DNA of 64,000 nucleotides. Source: Parcubacteria group bacterium. GTDB lineage: Bacteria; Patescibacteriota; Minisyncoccia; Moranbacterales; UBA2206. Position numbers and translations under genes: made by a program. Every line of letters starts with the position of its first letter. Position 1 is the stretch's first letter. The notes under the pieces are model-generated. The model made no database searches, was not told the DNA's origin, and was given only the letters and a program-made list of their open reading frames with translations. Where the stretch lies: the NCBI GenBank assembly GCA_041674205.1, contig JBAYWF010000001.1, positions 149,003 to 213,002 of the forward strand. The letters are read 5' to 3'. Shown here piece by piece: positions 54,378-58,851 of the stretch.

Positions 54378-55088
54378 ATGCGATCAATCCATAAGATGTG
54401 GGCGATTATCATGGTTATCGGCTTGGGAGCCGGACTTTTTTGGGTGAGGAATTTTTACAATCGAAGTCCTGGCACTGTCCCTTCCGGCAATCAATCGCAA
54501 AGCGCGGATACTAATATGTCAGCCGATCAGAATAATGGCGCCAGCGCGCCAGCAAGGCAAGATGTGAATCCGCAAAACCCATATGGTTTCCAGTCGCCAT
54601 TGGATAGGGCTGGGGAGCGGGTCACTAAAAAACCGTTCGGGATATTCATCACTCCGCAAAATTCACCGGTCCAGCCGGAGAAATTCCGCGGCTACCATAC
54701 CGGTGCGGATTTTGAAATCTTCCCGGAAGAATTGAATTTGGACGTTCCGGTGCGCGCGGTATGTCCAGGACGACTGAAAGTCAAAAAATACGCCGACGGT
54801 TATGGCGGAGTGGTTGTTGAAAGTTGCAGTTTGGACGGACAGCTGATTACAGTGGTTTATGGCCACCTTAGGTTGGCAAGCGTGGATTTGGCGGTCGGAT
54901 CCGATTTGAAGGCCGGAGACGTCATCGGGGTTTTGGGAAACGCCTACAGTTCTGAGACCAGCGGGGAGCGCAAGCACCTGCATTTGGGATTCCATAAGGG
55001 ATCCGGCATGAATATTTTGGGTTATGTGCAAAACCAATCGGAGCTTTCGGGTTGGATCGATCCATGCTTGTATGTTTGCCATAATTGA
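54378..55088 (+). CDS. M23-family metallopeptidase (LytM-like)
   Basis: Signal-anchor, then YHTGADFEI (HxxxD) and ERKHLHLGF (HxH) zinc-ligand motifs. Confidence 0.85.
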   Translation: MRSIHKMWAIIMVIGLGAGLFWVRNFYNRSPGTVPSGNQSQSADTNMSADQNNGASAPARQDVNPQNPYGFQSPLDRAGERVTKKPFGIFITPQNSPVQPEKFRGYHTGADFEIFPEELNLDVPVRAVCPGRLKVKKYADGYGGVVVESCSLDGQLITVVYGHLRLASVDLAVGSDLKAGDVIGVLGNAYSSETSGERKHLHLGFHKGSGMNILGYVQNQSELSGWIDPCLYVCHN

Positions 55089-55178
55089 AAGACAAAAACC
55101 AACAAACCGTCCCTGGTTCAAGCCGGTTTATCGGTCAATATGTAGTTTTGGATTATTAAGCAGGAAAGAACTTGGGTT

Positions 55179-55499
55179 TTAAGACTTATTTTTCACTTTC
55201 AGGGCGCTCATCGTCTTACCGGAAATTTTTCCAGTAGCTTTAACTACGTCATCGCTCCGGATGTCGGTGATTTTTATCGCTTTTCCGGTCTTGCTTAGAA
55301 GATCGGTGTCCGGGTTTATCTTGACCGTGTAGGTCGTCTTCTTGGTTTTCAAGCTGAATGATCCGTTTGAAACCGAAATCACCGTGCCTGATATGACGCT
55401 GCTATATTTGCTGGTTTTGGCGCCGGCTTCGGTAGCTATGCCTGAAATAAGCATCGCGACCGCCAAGGTGGAGAATATTAATTTTTTTGAATTTTGCAT
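55179..55499 (-). CDS. small secreted protein, DUF5666-like third paralog
   Basis: Signal peptide, then GTVISVSNGSFSLKTKKTTYTVKINPDTDLLSK...ITDIRSDDVVKATG, matching the pattern of 47007 and 50572. Confidence 0.45.
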   Translation of the reverse strand: MQNSKKLIFSTLAVAMLISGIATEAGAKTSKYSSVISGTVISVSNGSFSLKTKKTTYTVKINPDTDLLSKTGKAIKITDIRSDDVVKATGKISGKTMSALKVKNKS

Positions 55500-55947
55500 A
55501 GTGTCCGTTTAATTTTTAAAGTCTATTTGGTTTTGTCTGCAGCCCTTTCCGTTTAGCTGGCAATTTATTGCGATGTTTTTCAAATTTTGAAAAACCTTAT
55601 GGATAAATCGGAAATTGGAACCATCTTTCTGATTTCCGTGGCTGTCGCGCGAATAAGGCCTTTTTTCTTGCCTGATATATATTTTCTGGCGTATGGTCGG
55701 GCGAATAGCGCTTGTCACAGCGGATTTTCCCCGGCCTGCTTATTTAATAAAAAAAGAAAAATTATAGGCAAAAAATCGTACTATGCGCACGCATAATAAA
55801 TACAACAGGCGGGATAGTTTATTGCAAAAAAACATCCTGCGTCCGCTCTTTGGCTTAAACGCGGGCATAGGTGGGATGCTTCTCTTGAGGTGGGTAGTAT
55901 GCTAAAATAAAATAAGATTTTTTAATATTTTTAAGCTGTATATTTTT

Positions 55948-56325
55948 ATGCAAGACATGCAAACCGTATTCAATGAGATCCGCGAAATGAAGAAGGAGAT
56001 GAAGGGGATCCGCGAAATGTATAAGGACGCGTTGGCCCAGACGGATGATTACTCCGAAATCGTGGAAAAGGCCAAGGAATTGCGCGACAAGAAAAAACAG
56101 ATCGAAACCCGGGTGCAAAACGCGATGGGCAAATCCTATGAGAAATATGAAGATTTGAAGAGCGAAGTGGCTGCCAACGAGGAACTGTTGAACGATATCG
56201 CGATGACGACTTTGATGGACGGCAAGACCGTCGAAGTGGTGGATGAGTTCAGTAATAAATATGAGCCTACGTATGTAGTACGTTTCAAGAAGACCAATGA
56301 AATCAAAACTGAGGAAAATAAATAA
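55948..56325 (+). CDS. hypothetical coiled-coil protein
   Basis: 125-aa charged helical ORF. Confidence 0.4.
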   Translation: MQDMQTVFNEIREMKKEMKGIREMYKDALAQTDDYSEIVEKAKELRDKKKQIETRVQNAMGKSYEKYEDLKSEVAANEELLNDIAMTTLMDGKTVEVVDEFSNKYEPTYVVRFKKTNEIKTEENK

Positions 56326-56341
56326 ATAATTTTTCAAAAAT

Positions 56342-56539
56342 ATGGTAAAAAATGAAAGCGGCATTGACCGGATCGTCCGGGCGATCGCGGGAATCGCGTT
56401 GGTTGCGGCAGCTTTCCTGTTGGACGCCAATAGGTTTACCGTAGCTTTCTATGTGGTGGGCGTGGTTTTGATCATAACCGCCATTACCGGCTTCTGTGCC
56501 TTGTACAAGGTTTTCGGGATCGACACAAGCAAGAGATAA
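56342..56539 (+). CDS. DUF2892-family small inner-membrane protein (YgaP-like)
   Basis: SGIDRIVRAIAGIALVAAAFL...ITAITGFCALYKVFGIDT is the typical DUF2892 pattern (two TM helices, conserved G.C.LY). Confidence 0.7.
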   Translation: MVKNESGIDRIVRAIAGIALVAAAFLLDANRFTVAFYVVGVVLIITAITGFCALYKVFGIDTSKR

Positions 56540-56555
56540 CTGCCGGGAAATGAAA

Positions 56556-56587
56556 AAGACGGGCCAGTGAGGTCCGTCTTTTTTGAT
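56556..56587 (+). terminator. rho-independent terminator
   Basis: agacgg-gccagtgaggt-ccgtct followed by tttttt. Confidence 0.6.
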
Positions 56588-56589
56588 TT

Positions 56590-56894
56590 TCCCCGGTTCC
56601 GTGGTAGAGTGTGTATGGCAAGCACCGCGATCCGCTACGCGTAGCGGTCCAGCTGGCTGGCGTTCTCCCATCAAGATGGGTTTCTCGAGGAATGTTGGTG
56701 TGTCCATAGGGCCGAAAAAATCCAACGGATTTCCTTGAGGCGGTTAGGACGCCTAATGCACGGTCACCGACGTTATGCCCGGCGTCTTTTGGCCCCGGCA
56801 CAATATGGGCTTATTGAGGATCGGGTGGATATCGTCCGCCTTCCAACCGGAAGCAGCCTTAATGCTCTTCCCGGTTCCGATCCTCAATTTTTTT
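56590..56894 (+). ncRNA. candidate structured non-coding RNA of unknown class (~300 nt), ending in a long terminator-like hairpin
   Basis: A 500-nt region with no credible ORF. It contains many short GC hairpins (ccgctacg/cgtagcgg, aaatcc/ggattt, gacg/cgtc, cttcc/ggaag) and a 9-bp closing stem gaggatcgg/ccgatcctc plus T-tract at 56815-56894. Its strings resemble RNase P CR-I/CR-V and SRP domain IV but do not satisfy either consensus. Confidence 0.25.
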
Positions 56895-56895
56895 A

Positions 56896-56924
56896 TTGAC
56901 AAATCCCGCCCGGAGGAGTATGAT
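56896..56924 (+). promoter_or_regulatory. near-consensus sigma-70 promoter (TTGACA-17-TATGAT)
   Basis: TTGACA at 56896-56901 and TATGAT at 56919-56924. Confidence 0.5.
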
Positions 56925-56947
56925 TTCCGAAGTGGATTAACTCGTTT

Positions 56948-56970
56948 CTGCTGGCTAACGGCAGTTTTTT
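56948..56970 (+). terminator. hairpin plus T-tract about 25 nt downstream of the promoter (attenuator or about 40-nt sRNA 3' end)
   Basis: ctgctg-gctaa-cggcag followed by tttttt. Confidence 0.4.
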
Positions 56971-57066
56971 AATTCCTACGGAAGTACAAATTATTACAAA
57001 AGTACGAAAAATTTTGTAAATTCGTGTTTTTGTAAATATTTGTAATTTTGTAGATACATAAATTTT

Positions 57067-58851
57067 ATGGAAATCAGAAATATCGCGATTATCGCCCATG
57101 TGGATCATGGCAAAACTACCCTGACTGACGCGATTTTGCGCCAGACCGGGATGGTGACCGACGAGTCCGTCAGTATGGACTCCAATACGTTGGAAAAAGA
57201 GCGTGGCATCACGATTTATGCCAAGAACACCTCGATTTTTTATAAGGATACGAAAATCAATATCGTGGATACGCCGGGCCATGCCGACTTCGGTTCGGAA
57301 GTGGAACGGGTTTTGCGTTCGATCGACTCGGTGGTTTTGGTGGTGGACGCGCAGGAAGGGCCGATGCCGCAAACCCGGTTCGTCTTGAAAAAATCTTTGG
57401 AATTGGGACTGAAACCGATCGTGGTCATCAACAAAATCGACAAGCCGGCTGCCCAGCCGGATATCGTGCAAGAAGAAGTATTTGAATTGTTTTTGGATTT
57501 GGGAGCTAATGATGAACAATTGGATTTCCCAGTGGTCTATGCGATCGGCCGCGAAGGCATCGCTAAATTGCATATGGAGGATGAGGGGCATGATTTGACC
57601 CCGCTTTTGGAAACCATCATCGCTAAAGTAAAGCACGCCGATGGCGACGTGGCCGCTCCGCTCCGGATGCAAGCTTTCAATCTGGGTTATGACAATTTCC
57701 TGGGCCGGATGGCGGTGGGCCGCATCTATGAGGGGACCTTGAAAGACGGGCAAGCCGTGATAGCCAAAAAGCCGACTGGTGAAACCAGGACCGGCCGGAT
57801 CACTAAGCTTTATACTTTCCATGGCACCGTGCGTAAAGAAGTGAAAGAAGCCGTGGCTGGCGACATCGTGATGATCGCGGGCTTGGCGGATATTTTTATC
57901 GGTGAGACGATTTGTGAAAATCCCGAGCAGGAAGCTTTGCCGGCTATCCACATCGACGAGCCGACCATTTCCCTGAACTTCATCGTCAATGATTCGCCGT
58001 TCGCCGGACGGGAAGGAAAATTCGTGACCAACAAGCAGATCCGTGAAAGGTTGGAAAAGGAATTGGAAATCAACGTCGGACTCCATATTGATTTTGAAGG
58101 CGATCACTATAAAGTCTACGGCCGTGGTGAATTGCATATCGCGATTTTGCTGGAAAATATGCGCCGCGAAGGTTATGAATTGCAAGTGTCGCAACCGCAA
58201 GTCATCATCAAGGAAATTGAGGGCGTGAAGTCCGAGCCGTTCGAGGAAGTGACGATCGACGTGCCGGATGTTTCGGCCGGAACGATTATCGAGAAGATGG
58301 GTCGGCGGAAATCGATTATGACCAATATGAAACAAGCCAACGGGCAAAGCCGTTTGATATTCGAAGGTCCGACCCGCGGACTTCTGGGGTATCGCGGCGA
58401 GTTCGTGATCGACACCAAGGGCGAAGGCATTATGTCTTCCCGGGTGATCGGTTTCCGGCCATACGCCGGGGAAATCCAAAGAAGATCGGCTGGGGCGATG
58501 GTTTCGATGACCAGTGGCAAAGCCTTGGGATTCTCTTTGGCTAATTTACAAGACAGGGGCTCTTTATATATCGCTCCGGCTACGGAGGTCTATGAGGGAA
58601 TGGTTATCGGTGACACGTCCAAAGGCTTGGATATGGCGGTTAATCCGACCAAAGGCAAGCAATTGTCCAATATGCGTTCTTCGGGCGCGGATGAAGCCTT
58701 GCAGTTGGTGCCGCACCATGAGATTTCCATCGAAATAGGTTTGGAAATTATGGGTGCCGACGAATATCTGGAAATCACTCCGAAATCAGTCCGTCTTCGC
58801 AAGCAATATCTGACCGAAGTAGAAAGGCGGAGACACGAAAGAAAACAATAA
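57067..58851 (+). CDS. typA: translational GTPase TypA/BipA
   Basis: IAIIAHVDHGKTTL (G1), DTPGHADF (G3), NKIDK (G4) and an EF-G-like domain arrangement. 594 aa. Confidence 0.95.
   Translation: MEIRNIAIIAHVDHGKTTLTDAILRQTGMVTDESVSMDSNTLEKERGITIYAKNTSIFYKDTKINIVDTPGHADFGSEVERVLRSIDSVVLVVDAQEGPMPQTRFVLKKSLELGLKPIVVINKIDKPAAQPDIVQEEVFELFLDLGANDEQLDFPVVYAIGREGIAKLHMEDEGHDLTPLLETIIAKVKHADGDVAAPLRMQAFNLGYDNFLGRMAVGRIYEGTLKDGQAVIAKKPTGETRTGRITKLYTFHGTVRKEVKEAVAGDIVMIAGLADIFIGETICENPEQEALPAIHIDEPTISLNFIVNDSPFAGREGKFVTNKQIRERLEKELEINVGLHIDFEGDHYKVYGRGELHIAILLENMRREGYELQVSQPQVIIKEIEGVKSEPFEEVTIDVPDVSAGTIIEKMGRRKSIMTNMKQANGQSRLIFEGPTRGLLGYRGEFVIDTKGEGIMSSRVIGFRPYAGEIQRRSAGAMVSMTSGKALGFSLANLQDRGSLYIAPATEVYEGMVIGDTSKGLDMAVNPTKGKQLSNMRSSGADEALQLVPHHEISIEIGLEIMGADEYLEITPKSVRLRKQYLTEVERRRHERKQ

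What the first reader, a model, noticed from the sequence alone, without database searches (positions are those of the whole stretch)
56590..56894. 300-nt ORF-free, hairpin-dense region upstream of typA: candidate structured ncRNA of unknown class
Between the DUF2892 gene terminator (56556-56587) and a consensus promoter (56896) lies about 300 nt with only antisense or short ORFs. It holds numerous GC-rich local hairpins and ends in a 9-bp stem gaggatcgg/ccgatcctc enclosing a sub-hairpin, followed by aattttttt. I tested it by eye against RNase P RNA, SRP RNA and tmRNA. It has look-alike strings (GAGGAA.GU...UCCAUAGGGC, GGUUAGGACGCCUAA, ACAAUAUGGGCUUAU, CCGGAAGCAGCC) but lacks the obligatory CR-II/III block and P4 complementarity of RNase P, and the GGAA-GGAAG loop of SRP. 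It is therefore either a divergent housekeeping RNA or a novel sRNA.
Basis: seen in the sequence. Interest (0 to 1): 0.55.

Follow-up and report, generated by a model that had tools for sequence, protein, structure and literature searches.

The report
Orphan structured small RNA upstream of typA
The 300-base gap upstream of typA in this Moranbacteria (CPR) genome most likely encodes a separate, roughly 280-nt folded non-coding RNA with its own promoter and terminator; it matches no known RNA family, is missing from many close relatives, and its function is unknown.

Summary
Window 56590-56894 is GC-rich and hairpin-dense, has no conserved ORF, and lies between the DUF2892 terminator and a near-consensus typA promoter.

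It is not RNase P, SRP, tmRNA or 6S RNA. Rfam gives nothing, even at E<=10, and ARAGORN finds nothing.

Homologues exist only directly upstream of typA, in five other Candidatus Moraniibacteriota assemblies. One of these (L008) carries a reduced ~130-nt core. Across them, a TTGnnn-16/17-TAnnnT promoter-like site, several helices, a loop-to-tail pseudoknot and a three-way-junction terminator are kept. Compensatory changes preserve the pairing (93% of cells paired versus 34-47% in slid controls). G·U pairs outnumber A·C by 27 to 3, which places the RNA on the + strand.

The primary sequence drifts at about the synonymous-site rate. The element is absent from many relatives with 92-96% identical TypA, so it is dispensable.

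Best reading (about 0.5): an independently transcribed, lineage-restricted structured sRNA (~56617-56894, +) of unknown function. Rivals are an auxiliary cis-acting leader of typA and a hairpin-rich spacer with no RNA function.

Interest is moderate to low. A separate and much more widespread terminator-like hairpin in the typA leader was noticed in passing.

The parts
56553..56586 (+). Flank: terminator hairpin of the DUF2892/YgaP-like gene. It has A-run and T-run flanks, so it could act in both directions. It separates the element from the upstream gene.
   Evidence: Inverted repeat I4, 13-nt arms, 92% complementary; sequence.
56583..56610 (+). P1: promoter-like site of the element, TTGATT-16-TAGAGT. 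It predicts a transcription start near 56616-56618.
   Evidence: A TTGnnn-16/17-TAnnnT site lies at the equivalent place in all six genomes, including the far-diverged L004 and L008. It is a consensus match only; transcription has not been shown.
56617..56894 (+). Predicted ~278-nt non-coding RNA (the element proper).
   Evidence: No conserved ORF. Homologues in L171, L003/L165, L002, L004 and L008. The consensus fold is better on + (-40.7) than on - (-27.8 kcal/mol). 27 G·U against 3 A·C cells.
56618..56661 (+). H1: 5' hairpin domain, with tip CCGCUA/UAGCGG at 56632-56647. It is absent from L004 and L008.
   Evidence: The tip helix has compensatory changes at 4 of 6 positions (helix 3).
56667..56680 (+). 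H2: small hairpin CCCAU/AUGGG.
   Evidence: Invariant in four genomes. L004 has a different hairpin (CUCUA/UAGAG) at the same place.
56683..56740 (+). H3 and H3b: long hairpin. H3 is the 10-bp helix UCUCGAGGAA (56683-56692) with UUCCUUGAGG (56731-56740). H3b is GUUGG (56694-56698) with CCAAC (56722-56726).
   Evidence: H3 is paired in all 50 cells over five genomes, with two compensatory and four one-sided positions (helix 4). H3b reads GUU/AAC, ACC/GGU, GCC/GGC and CGG/CCG in different genomes.
56768..56787 (+). H5: 6-7 bp hairpin with conserved loop AUGCCC (56775-56780). It is part of the conserved core.
   Evidence: Compensatory changes in L003/L002, L004 and L008. It is the best-conserved block when L004 is scored with an HMM built without it.
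56777..56810 (+). Pseudoknot: H5 loop GCCC (56777-56780) pairs with GGGC (56807-56810) in the conserved AUAUGGGCUU tail, just 5' of the terminator stem.
   Evidence: The pairs read GCCC:GGGC (window, L171, L004), GCCC:GGGU (L003), ACCC:GGGU (L002) and GUCC:GGAC (L008) (helix 7, 73, 88). RNAalifold chose this pairing on the core alignment.
56813..56894 (+). T1: three-way-junction terminator. The 12-bp outer stem (56813-56824 with 56877-88) encloses two hairpins (about 56825-56839 and about 56846-56876). The U-tract is 56888-56894, which abuts the -35 of the typA promoter.
   Evidence: Inverted repeat I5, 100% complementary. The outer stem covaries at 3 positions. L004 has a 15-bp stem of different sequence with the same layout.
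56896..56924 (+). Flank: P2, the typA promoter TTGACA-17-TATGAT. It is not part of the RNA.
   Evidence: Matches 11 of 12 positions. TTTTTTATTGACAAA is invariant in the four-genome alignment. The promoter is present in relatives that lack the element.
56931..56970 (+). Flank: conserved typA leader with a terminator-like hairpin, UCUGCUGG-CUA-ACGGCAG plus U6 (hairpin 56948-56964). It is a separate feature.
   Evidence: Terminator scan. The pattern occurs once in the 64-kb window and once in 41 of 170 loci, always on the + strand; in the 39 distinct copies listed it lies just 5' of typA.

Best explanation
Window ~56617-56894 (+) is a stand-alone gene for a ~280-nt structured non-coding RNA, restricted to a small clade of Candidatus Moraniibacteriota.

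Inferred course of events: a sigma-70-type promoter (TTGATT-16-TAGAGT, 56583-56610) starts transcription just after the DUF2892 terminator. The RNA folds into:
- a variable 5' part (H1, H2 and the long H3/H3b hairpin);
- a conserved 3' core, made of hairpin H5 whose loop GCCC pairs with a downstream GGGC (a pseudoknot);
- a 12-bp stem that closes a three-way junction and, with a U7 tract, ends transcription 1-2 nt before the -35 of the typA promoter.

The product is therefore a discrete small RNA, not part of the typA mRNA. It is an accessory RNA, not a housekeeping one. Its structure is under selection while its sequence drifts.

What is shown: no conserved ORF, homology, conserved helices, strand, and patchy distribution. 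What is inferred: transcription from P1, termination at T1, and any activity. My guess is a regulatory or protein-binding sRNA whose constant position next to typA reflects either a functional tie to typA expression or simply inherited synteny.
For: No known family:
- Rfam gives no hit at gathering thresholds in the 64-kb window and nothing credible at E<=10. The homologues give nothing either.
- ARAGORN finds no tRNA or tmRNA.

Non-coding:
- Every frame has 1-7 stops in all four homologues tested.
- ORFs are not collinear between genomes, and a 4-nt indel breaks the only similar minus-strand reading frame.
- Six-frame tblastn against 1 Mb of related loci finds nothing outside the element-bearing loci themselves, whose hits were set aside.

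Homologues, always directly 5' of the typA promoter:
- L003/L165, L002 and L004.
- L171, 183 bits.
- A reduced form in L008, 20.7 bits, E=7e-4, scored by a model that did not contain it.

Structure:
- The RNAalifold + strand consensus is -40.7 kcal/mol with 16 compensatory pairs.
- On the MAFFT alignment A4, 42 named pairs are 93.4% paired, against 34-47% when partners are slid.
- 10 of those pairs change on both sides, against 1-5 in slid controls.
- 0 of 500 shuffles reach the observed value on four of five measures.
- A hand-registered table of 61 positions has 20 covarying positions and 96% canonical cells.

Strand: 27 G·U against 3 A·C cells.

Selection:
- typA fourfold-degenerate sites are saturated between the window and L004 (0.37 identity).
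- L004 and L008 nevertheless keep the promoter-like site, H3, H5, the pseudoknot and the three-way-junction terminator.
Against: - There are no expression data.
- Only six distinct sequences exist, four of them close relatives, so covariation cannot be tested formally. My helix registers were partly set by hand.
- Between the window and L002/L003 the element is 71-74% identical. This equals the identity at typA fourfold sites (0.69-0.73), so there is no excess primary-sequence conservation there.
- An HMM built without L004 scores L004 at only 6.7 bits, E=1.1 over 1 Mb. Its homology rests on synteny, collinearity and architecture.
- The element is absent at the typA locus in many near relatives, so any function is dispensable.
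- The P1 promoter is a moderate consensus match.
- A multi-branched terminator is atypical.
- No target or partner was found.
Confidence: 0.5

Rival explanations
1. The element is a cis-acting leader. It would be the sensor and terminator (riboswitch-like or protein/temperature-responsive attenuator) of an auxiliary upstream promoter P1. Read-through of T1 would add transcripts to typA on top of the constitutive proximal promoter P2.
For: - In all six genomes the element is co-oriented with typA and immediately 5' of it, even where the upstream gene differs: YgaP-like in the window, DNA_alkylation in L004.
- The core layout, a hairpin-loop pseudoknot whose 3' strand lies 2-4 nt before a terminator stem, resembles small pseudoknot riboswitches.
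- The 5' arm of T1 (UUGAGGA or CCAGGGAA) can also pair with the 3' strand of H3, at -6 to -9 kcal/mol in every genome.
Against: - A strong, better-conserved promoter (P2) sits between T1 and typA. It is present in relatives without the element.
- Read-through RNA would meet a second terminator-like hairpin at 56948-56970.
- Folding of truncated RNAs gives no common antiterminator: the partners of the T1 5' arm differ in each genome.
- The alternative duplex is weaker than H3 in four of five genomes.
- No Rfam riboswitch or leader matches.
Confidence: 0.17
2. There is no RNA function. The element would be a hairpin-rich spacer or decaying relic (for example of a lost gene or element) that drifts neutrally, is being deleted in many lineages, and keeps hairpins only because it ends in a terminator.
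For: - Identity to L002/L003 equals the synonymous-site identity.
- The element is absent from many close relatives, and the stretch upstream of typA is an indel hot-spot with varying genes.
- It cannot be detected by sequence beyond a narrow clade.
Against: - Neutral drift of 26-30% should break helices. Instead 93-96% of cells stay paired, with many double changes, including in helices unrelated to termination: H1 tip, H3/H3b, H5 and the pseudoknot.
- G·U is tolerated and A·C is not, which points to selection on the + strand RNA.
- The architecture and the promoter-like site persist in L004 and L008, where synonymous sites are saturated.
- There is no protein-level similarity to any neighbouring gene.
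Confidence: 0.22
3. The element is a divergent housekeeping RNA (RNase P RNA, SRP RNA, tmRNA or 6S RNA).
For: Strings resembling RNase P CR-I/CR-V and the SRP GGAAGCAGCC motif are present.
Against: - No Rfam hit, even at E<=10 with permissive filters.
- ARAGORN finds no tmRNA.
- GAGGAA is paired in H3 with covariation.
- The 5' and 3' ends do not pair with each other.
- The SRP-like string is not conserved.
- The element is absent from this locus in close relatives and diverges at the neutral rate.
Confidence: 0.02
4. The element is a small protein gene or a type I toxin-antitoxin locus hidden in the region.
For: - Short ORFs exist on both strands.
- A patchy distribution is typical of type I toxin-antitoxin loci.
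Against: - No ORF is conserved in position or frame among homologues.
- The similar minus-strand peptide stretch is broken by a 4-nt indel.
- No hydrophobic small ORF is present.
- There are no Pfam hits.
- The L008 form is only ~130 nt.
Confidence: 0.03

Closest known systems
Orphan structured ncRNA candidates found as GC-rich intergenic regions. One example is the raiA motif RNA (Rfam RF03072), whose details I give from memory. The search approach is described in PMC8632094, which turned up in search but which I did not read.
   Same: - A ~130-280 nt GC-rich, ORF-free, multi-helix RNA in a lower-GC intergenic context.
- Its own promoter and intrinsic terminator.
- Located next to a gene for a ribosome-associated factor.
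- Function unknown.
   Different: - No sequence or structure match to raiA or to any of the 4227 Rfam families.
- Known from only six CPR assemblies.
- Patchy even among near relatives.
- Sequence drifts at about the neutral rate.
Small pseudoknot riboswitches with terminator expression platforms (preQ1-I/II, SAM-II/V, fluoride). The comparison is from my own knowledge.
   Same: - A hairpin loop pairs with a downstream tail located just before a terminator stem.
- The pairing covaries: GCCC:GGGC, ACCC:GGGU, GUCC:GGAC.
   Different: - The linker between hairpin and tail is 19-47 nt.
- A strong promoter lies between the terminator and the downstream gene.
- There is no conserved antiterminator.
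- The terminator is a three-way junction.
- No Rfam match.
Bacterial RNase P RNA (type A)
   Same: - Size class.
- The strings GAGGAAUGU..UCCAUAGGGC and ACAAUAUGGGCUUAU resemble CR-I and CR-V of E. coli M1 RNA.
   Different: - No P4 complementarity.
- No P1 pairing of the two ends.
- No CR-II/III.
- GAGGAA lies inside a covarying helix.
- No hit to the RNaseP covariance models at E<=10.
- Not conserved across related genomes.

Membership tests
RNase P RNA (Rfam RNaseP_bact_a/b and related) | Match to the family covariance model | tested here: not met
   No RNase P hit in the window at gathering thresholds, in 56300-57100 at E<=10, or in the homologous loci at E<=5.
RNase P RNA (Rfam RNaseP_bact_a/b and related) | P4 helix formed by CR-I and CR-V, and P1 pairing of the 5' and 3' ends | tested here: not met
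   The CR-I-like GAGGAA pairs locally with UUCCUUGAG (H3), 100% paired with covariation. The 3' end is a self-contained terminator domain. P4-like pairing fails by inspection.
RNase P RNA (Rfam RNaseP_bact_a/b and related) | Essential gene conserved across related genomes | tested here: not met
   Absent at the syntenic site in relatives with 92-96% identical TypA, and not found elsewhere in 1 Mb of loci. Whole genomes could not be searched.
Bacterial SRP RNA (4.5S / Bacteria_small_SRP, large SRP) | Domain IV hairpin with GNAR tetraloop and conserved internal loops; match to the covariance model | tested here: not met
   No Rfam hit. CCGGAAGCAGCC is the stem of inner hairpin B and reads GGAAGUGCUCC or GGAAGUGUCCC in L003 and L002.
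tmRNA | tRNA-like domain plus tag-peptide reading frame | tested here: not met
   ARAGORN finds no tRNA or tmRNA in the 64-kb window. No Rfam hit.
6S RNA | Single long irregular hairpin with a central bubble; match to the covariance model | tested here: not met
   No Rfam hit. The consensus fold is multi-domain.
Riboswitch or transcription-attenuating leader (generic) | Lies in the 5' UTR of the regulated gene, with no promoter between the element and the gene | tested here: not met
   A conserved TTGACA-17-TATGAT promoter-like site lies between T1 and typA. It is present without the element in relatives.
Riboswitch or transcription-attenuating leader (generic) | Conserved, mutually exclusive terminator and antiterminator pairings | tested here: inconclusive
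   A possible pairing between the H3 3' strand and the T1 5' arm exists in all genomes (-6 to -9 kcal/mol). However, the truncated-RNA folds show no common partner.
Stand-alone bacterial sRNA gene (generic kind) | Own promoter and intrinsic terminator, with no conserved ORF | tested here: met
   A promoter-like site is conserved in six genomes. A 12-15 bp stem plus U-tract is present in the five full-length homologues; L008 has a comparable stem with a broken U-tract. There is no conserved ORF. These are sequence predictions only.
Stand-alone bacterial sRNA gene (generic kind) | A discrete transcript is detected | not testable with these tools
   No transcriptome data are available here.
Repeated or mobile intergenic element (REP/MITE-like) | Multiple copies per genome, terminal repeats or target duplications | tested here: not met
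   The element is single-copy in the 64-kb window and in 1 Mb of related loci. The 10-nt direct repeat CCCGGTTCCG (56592 and 56870) is not kept in the homologues. There is no match in phage or plasmid collections.
Type I toxin-antitoxin locus | Conserved short hydrophobic toxin ORF with an overlapping antisense RNA | tested here: not met
   No conserved or hydrophobic short ORF is present.

The most novel reading that the evidence does not exclude
The element would be the first described member of a CPR-specific class of pseudoknotted regulatory RNA that is functionally coupled to the ribosome-associated GTPase TypA/BipA. One possibility is a sensor (ligand, protein or temperature) that gates an auxiliary promoter. 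Another is that its termination complex sits on the -35 of the typA promoter and tunes it. The ~130-nt core seen in L008 would be the functional unit.
Probability: 0.15. Interest if true: 0.6.

Novelty: new member of a known kind. Interest (0 to 1): 0.35.

Why it matters
My three full-text literature searches returned no paper describing a regulatory RNA of Candidate Phyla Radiation bacteria. These organisms are uncultivated, have tiny genomes under strong deletion pressure, and lack many known regulators. A 280-nt non-coding unit that keeps its fold through saturating divergence is therefore probably doing something, and it sits next to a gene for ribosome assembly and stress adaptation.

The practical value is limited. 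The family is tiny and patchy, and no function can be assigned. At present it is one more orphan sRNA candidate.

The check also removes a wrong lead: it is not a missing RNase P, SRP, tmRNA or 6S gene.

Tried and rejected
- **Known families.** Rfam at gathering and at permissive thresholds, on the window and on the homologues, gave nothing. The only weak hits were eukaryotic snoRNA models on the AT-rich leader and RAGATH-21 at E=8.8 on the minus strand; I dismissed them as chance. ARAGORN found nothing.
- **Pseudogene or relic of a neighbouring gene.** Six-frame tblastn of four homologues against all fetched loci gave no hit below E~0.2 outside the element-bearing loci themselves, whose hits were set aside. 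The DNA_alkylation gene, which replaces or precedes the element in relatives, is intact next to the element in L004, so the element is not its remnant.
- **Small ORF.** No ORF is conserved in position or frame.
- **Mobile or repeated element.** There is no second copy in the window or loci, and nothing in the phage or plasmid collections. A degenerate core pattern found six IMG/VR contigs, but they score only 11-13 bits with the model, so they are chance matches. The 10-nt direct repeat at both ends is not conserved.
- **Widening the family.** nhmmer and three covariance models over 174 loci (1 Mb) added only L171 and L008.
- **Riboswitch-type switching.** No conserved antiterminator was found.
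- **Pairing with the typA mRNA.** RNAduplex gave whole-length, non-specific duplexes with z from -1.2 to +1.7, which is uninformative. A possible kissing pair between the H4 loop GUUAG and the leader loop CUAAC in the window is not kept in L003 or L002 (by eye).
- **Strand from thermodynamics.** z-scores are similar on both strands. The strand call rests on G·U against A·C counts and on the promoter and terminator.
- **Literature.** Three full-text searches found nothing on CPR ncRNAs or on a typA leader.

Full report
**1. The observation**

Reading 56200-57300 and listing ORFs confirms the layout.
- A 65-aa YgaP-like_TM/DUF2892 gene lies at 56342-56539, Pfam E=1.9e-20.
- Its hairpin is at 56553-56583, followed by a T-run.
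- An ORF-poor stretch follows.
- A TTGACA-17-TATGAT promoter-like site lies at 56896-56924, matching 11 of 12 positions.
- typA is at 57067-58851.

The stretch is the GC maximum of the neighbourhood (0.58). It folds somewhat better than shuffles (z=-2.72). It ends in a perfect 12-bp stem (56813-56824 with 56877-56888) that encloses two hairpins and is followed by seven T counted from the final stem base, 56888-56894. The ORFs overlapping it have no Pfam match. So the description is accurate; only the closing stem is longer than stated, and it holds two sub-hairpins.

**2. Not a known RNA**

cmscan of the whole 64-kb window finds no Rfam family at gathering thresholds. A permissive scan of 56300-57100 at E<=10 lists only chance matches. 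The homologous loci give nothing either. ARAGORN finds no tRNA or tmRNA.

**3. Source organism and relatives**

The TypA protein is found on one ENA metagenome contig of 322 kb. NCBI names it as a Parcubacteria-group MAG protein. The nearest genomes are Candidatus Moraniibacteriota MAGs.

Homologues of the element were collected from four sources:
- TypA-anchored loci from genome and metagenome collections;
- members of the 90%-identity protein clusters;
- contig look-ups;
- a search for TypA homologues.

Searching them with blastn, nhmmer and covariance models gave six distinct homologues:
- the window itself;
- L171 (183 bits);
- L003, which is identical to L165;
- L002;
- L004;
- a reduced form in L008, which scored 20.7 bits (E=7e-4) with a model that did not include it.

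L164 shows only the last ~40 nt before its contig ends. In every case the element lies directly 5' of the typA promoter, on the same strand. The upstream gene differs: YgaP-like in the window clade, a DNA-alkylation-repair gene in L004.

**4. Non-coding**

All six frames carry 1-7 stops in the four homologues tested. Six-frame tblastn against the loci finds nothing outside the element-bearing loci themselves, whose hits were set aside. Short ORFs are not collinear between genomes. The one minus-strand peptide stretch that looks similar (…ADDIHPILNKPI…) coincides with a conserved hairpin and is put out of frame by a 4-nt indel.

**5. Rate of evolution**

At typA fourfold-degenerate sites the window is 0.73 identical to L003, 0.69 to L002 and 0.37 to L004, the last being saturated.

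The element is 71-74% identical between the window and L002/L003. That is about the neutral rate, so primary sequence is not visibly constrained among the close relatives. An HMM built without L004 scores L004's element at only 6.7 bits. The aligned part is H5 plus the AUAAC-AUGGGCUUGC tail.

What persists in L004 and L008 is architecture: the promoter-like site, H3 (L004 only), H5, the pseudoknot and the terminator domain.

**6. Structure**

RNAalifold gives a better consensus on the + strand than on the - strand: -40.7 kcal/mol with 58 pairs, 16 of them with compensatory changes, against -27.8 kcal/mol.

On the unedited MAFFT alignment of five sequences (A4), I named only helices whose columns are in register. 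Results:
- 42 pairs are 93.4% paired, against 34-47% when the 3' partners are slid by 1-3 columns.
- 10 pairs change on both sides, against 1-5 in the slid controls.
- 0 of 500 column shuffles reach the observed value on four of five measures.

A hand-registered table that also covers helices MAFFT misaligns has 61 positions, of which 20 covary, and 96% of cells are canonical. Examples:
- H3b reads GUU/AAC, ACC/GGU, GCC/GGC and CGG/CCG.
- H1 tip position 4 is C-G in the window and U-A in L171.
- The H5 loop pairs with the downstream tail as GCCC:GGGC, GCCC:GGGU, ACCC:GGGU and GUCC:GGAC.

In these helices there are 27 G·U cells and only 3 A·C cells. This places the RNA on the + strand. Thermodynamic z-scores alone do not separate the strands.

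Caveats: there are six sequences, four of them closely related; some registers were chosen by me; and no formal covariation test such as R-scape was possible.

**7. Boundaries**

A TTGnnn-16/17-TAnnnT site lies at the same relative position in all six genomes (window: TTGATT-16-TAGAGT, 56583-56610). It predicts a start near 56617.

The 3' end is the three-way-junction stem plus U-tract. Its last U is one base from the TTGACA of the typA promoter.

In L008 the unit is only ~130 nt: promoter, H5, pseudoknot, terminator. I therefore take H5, the pseudoknot and T1 as the conserved core, and H1-H3 as a lineage-specific extension.

**8. Distribution**

At the typA locus the element is missing from L162, L163, L168, L170, L172 and L173/L174, whose TypA is 92-96% identical. 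There the intergenic region holds only the typA promoter and leader.

On a TypA tree, carriers and non-carriers are interleaved, and the L008 carrier lies outside them. This means either many losses or exchange by recombination between relatives. Either way the element is dispensable. That, together with the neutral-rate drift, rules out a housekeeping RNA.

**9. Mechanism**

I could not find a function.
- No antiterminator is conserved.
- A crude duplex search against the typA mRNA was uninformative.
- P2 and a second terminator-like hairpin lie between T1 and typA. This argues against a classical riboswitch.

I therefore commit to an independent, terminated, structured sRNA (confidence ~0.5). 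An auxiliary cis-leader (~0.17) and a non-functional spacer (~0.22) are the main rivals.

**10. Known comparators and novelty**

The element works like, and is best filed with, orphan structured sRNA candidates from GC-rich intergenic regions. It is not a member of any curated family. Three full-text literature searches found nothing on CPR ncRNAs or on a typA leader. I rate it a new member of a known kind, with interest 0.35.

**11. Side finding**

The typA leader itself carries a terminator-like hairpin that is far more widely conserved than the element. Details are in the noticed items.

Noticed in passing
window 56931-56970 (hairpin 56948-56964); also L002-L009, L011-L013, L016, L018, L019, L068, L072, L075, L082, L084-L087, L089, L090, L102, L106, L109, L129, L136, L137, L139, L147, L150, L154, L163-L165, L167, L168, L170, L171, L173: The typA promoter is followed within ~5-25 nt by a terminator-like hairpin, UCUGC-loop-GCAG plus U4-8.

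- The exact pattern occurs once in the 64-kb window (0.02 expected by chance) and once in 41 of 170 TypA-anchored loci, always on the + strand. In the 39 distinct copies listed it lies just 5' of typA, often only 6-22 nt before the ATG.
- Other Patescibacteria have a hairpin of different sequence plus a T-run in the same place, for example CGCUG..CAGCG, AGGCG..CGCCU and ACUGG..CCAGU.
- 91 of 143 loci have such a site within 150 nt of the start. One of them is the cultured Minisyncoccus archaeiphilus.
- There is no Rfam match.

This looks like a conserved attenuator or operator in the typA leader. I did not run a control on the upstream regions of other genes.
   Followed up: partly
window 56975-57066: In the window lineage only, 90-130 nt of AT-rich DNA lies between the leader hairpin and the typA ATG.
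- It holds three direct repeats of TTTTGTAAAT at 57010-57055, spaced 16-18 nt apart.
- It also holds a 33-nt imperfect inverted repeat and TACGAA/TTCGTA-like words.
- Similar ATTCGTA/TTTGTAA words occur upstream of typA in L002, L003, L010 and L083.
- Other relatives have only 6-22 nt here.

These may be operator sites.
   Followed up: no
window 1-64000: The whole 64-kb window has no tRNA or tmRNA (ARAGORN) and no Rfam family at gathering thresholds. This is unusually RNA-gene-poor for 64 kb of a small genome.
   Followed up: no
upstream of typA in L004, L162, L163, L167, L168, L170, L172, L173 (compare window 54378-57066): The DNA immediately 5' of typA is an indel hot-spot among genomes with 92-98% identical TypA. 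In various combinations it holds a YgaP-like gene, a DNA-alkylation-repair gene, GcpE, an amino-acid kinase plus a 57-aa membrane ORF, a 23S_rRNA_IVP gene, or two extra small genes. The typA promoter and leader stay constant.
   Followed up: partly
L082 1-135; L005 ~2670-2920: Two relatives have other hairpin-rich, apparently ORF-free stretches ending in a T-run just before the typA promoter. L082 has a long hairpin, CAUAGAGGUGGUGGGGAUUUA...UAAAUCCUACCACUUCUAUG; L005 has a GC-rich ~250-nt stretch. Neither matches the element models. It is unclear whether they are unrelated spacers or further diverged versions.
   Followed up: partly
window 56592-56601 and 56870-56879: There is an exact 10-nt direct repeat, CCCGGTTCCG, near both ends of the element. 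Two copies are seen in the window against 0.18 expected. The 3' copy is changed in L171, and neither copy is present in L003, L002 or L004. It is probably chance rather than a target-site duplication.
   Followed up: yes
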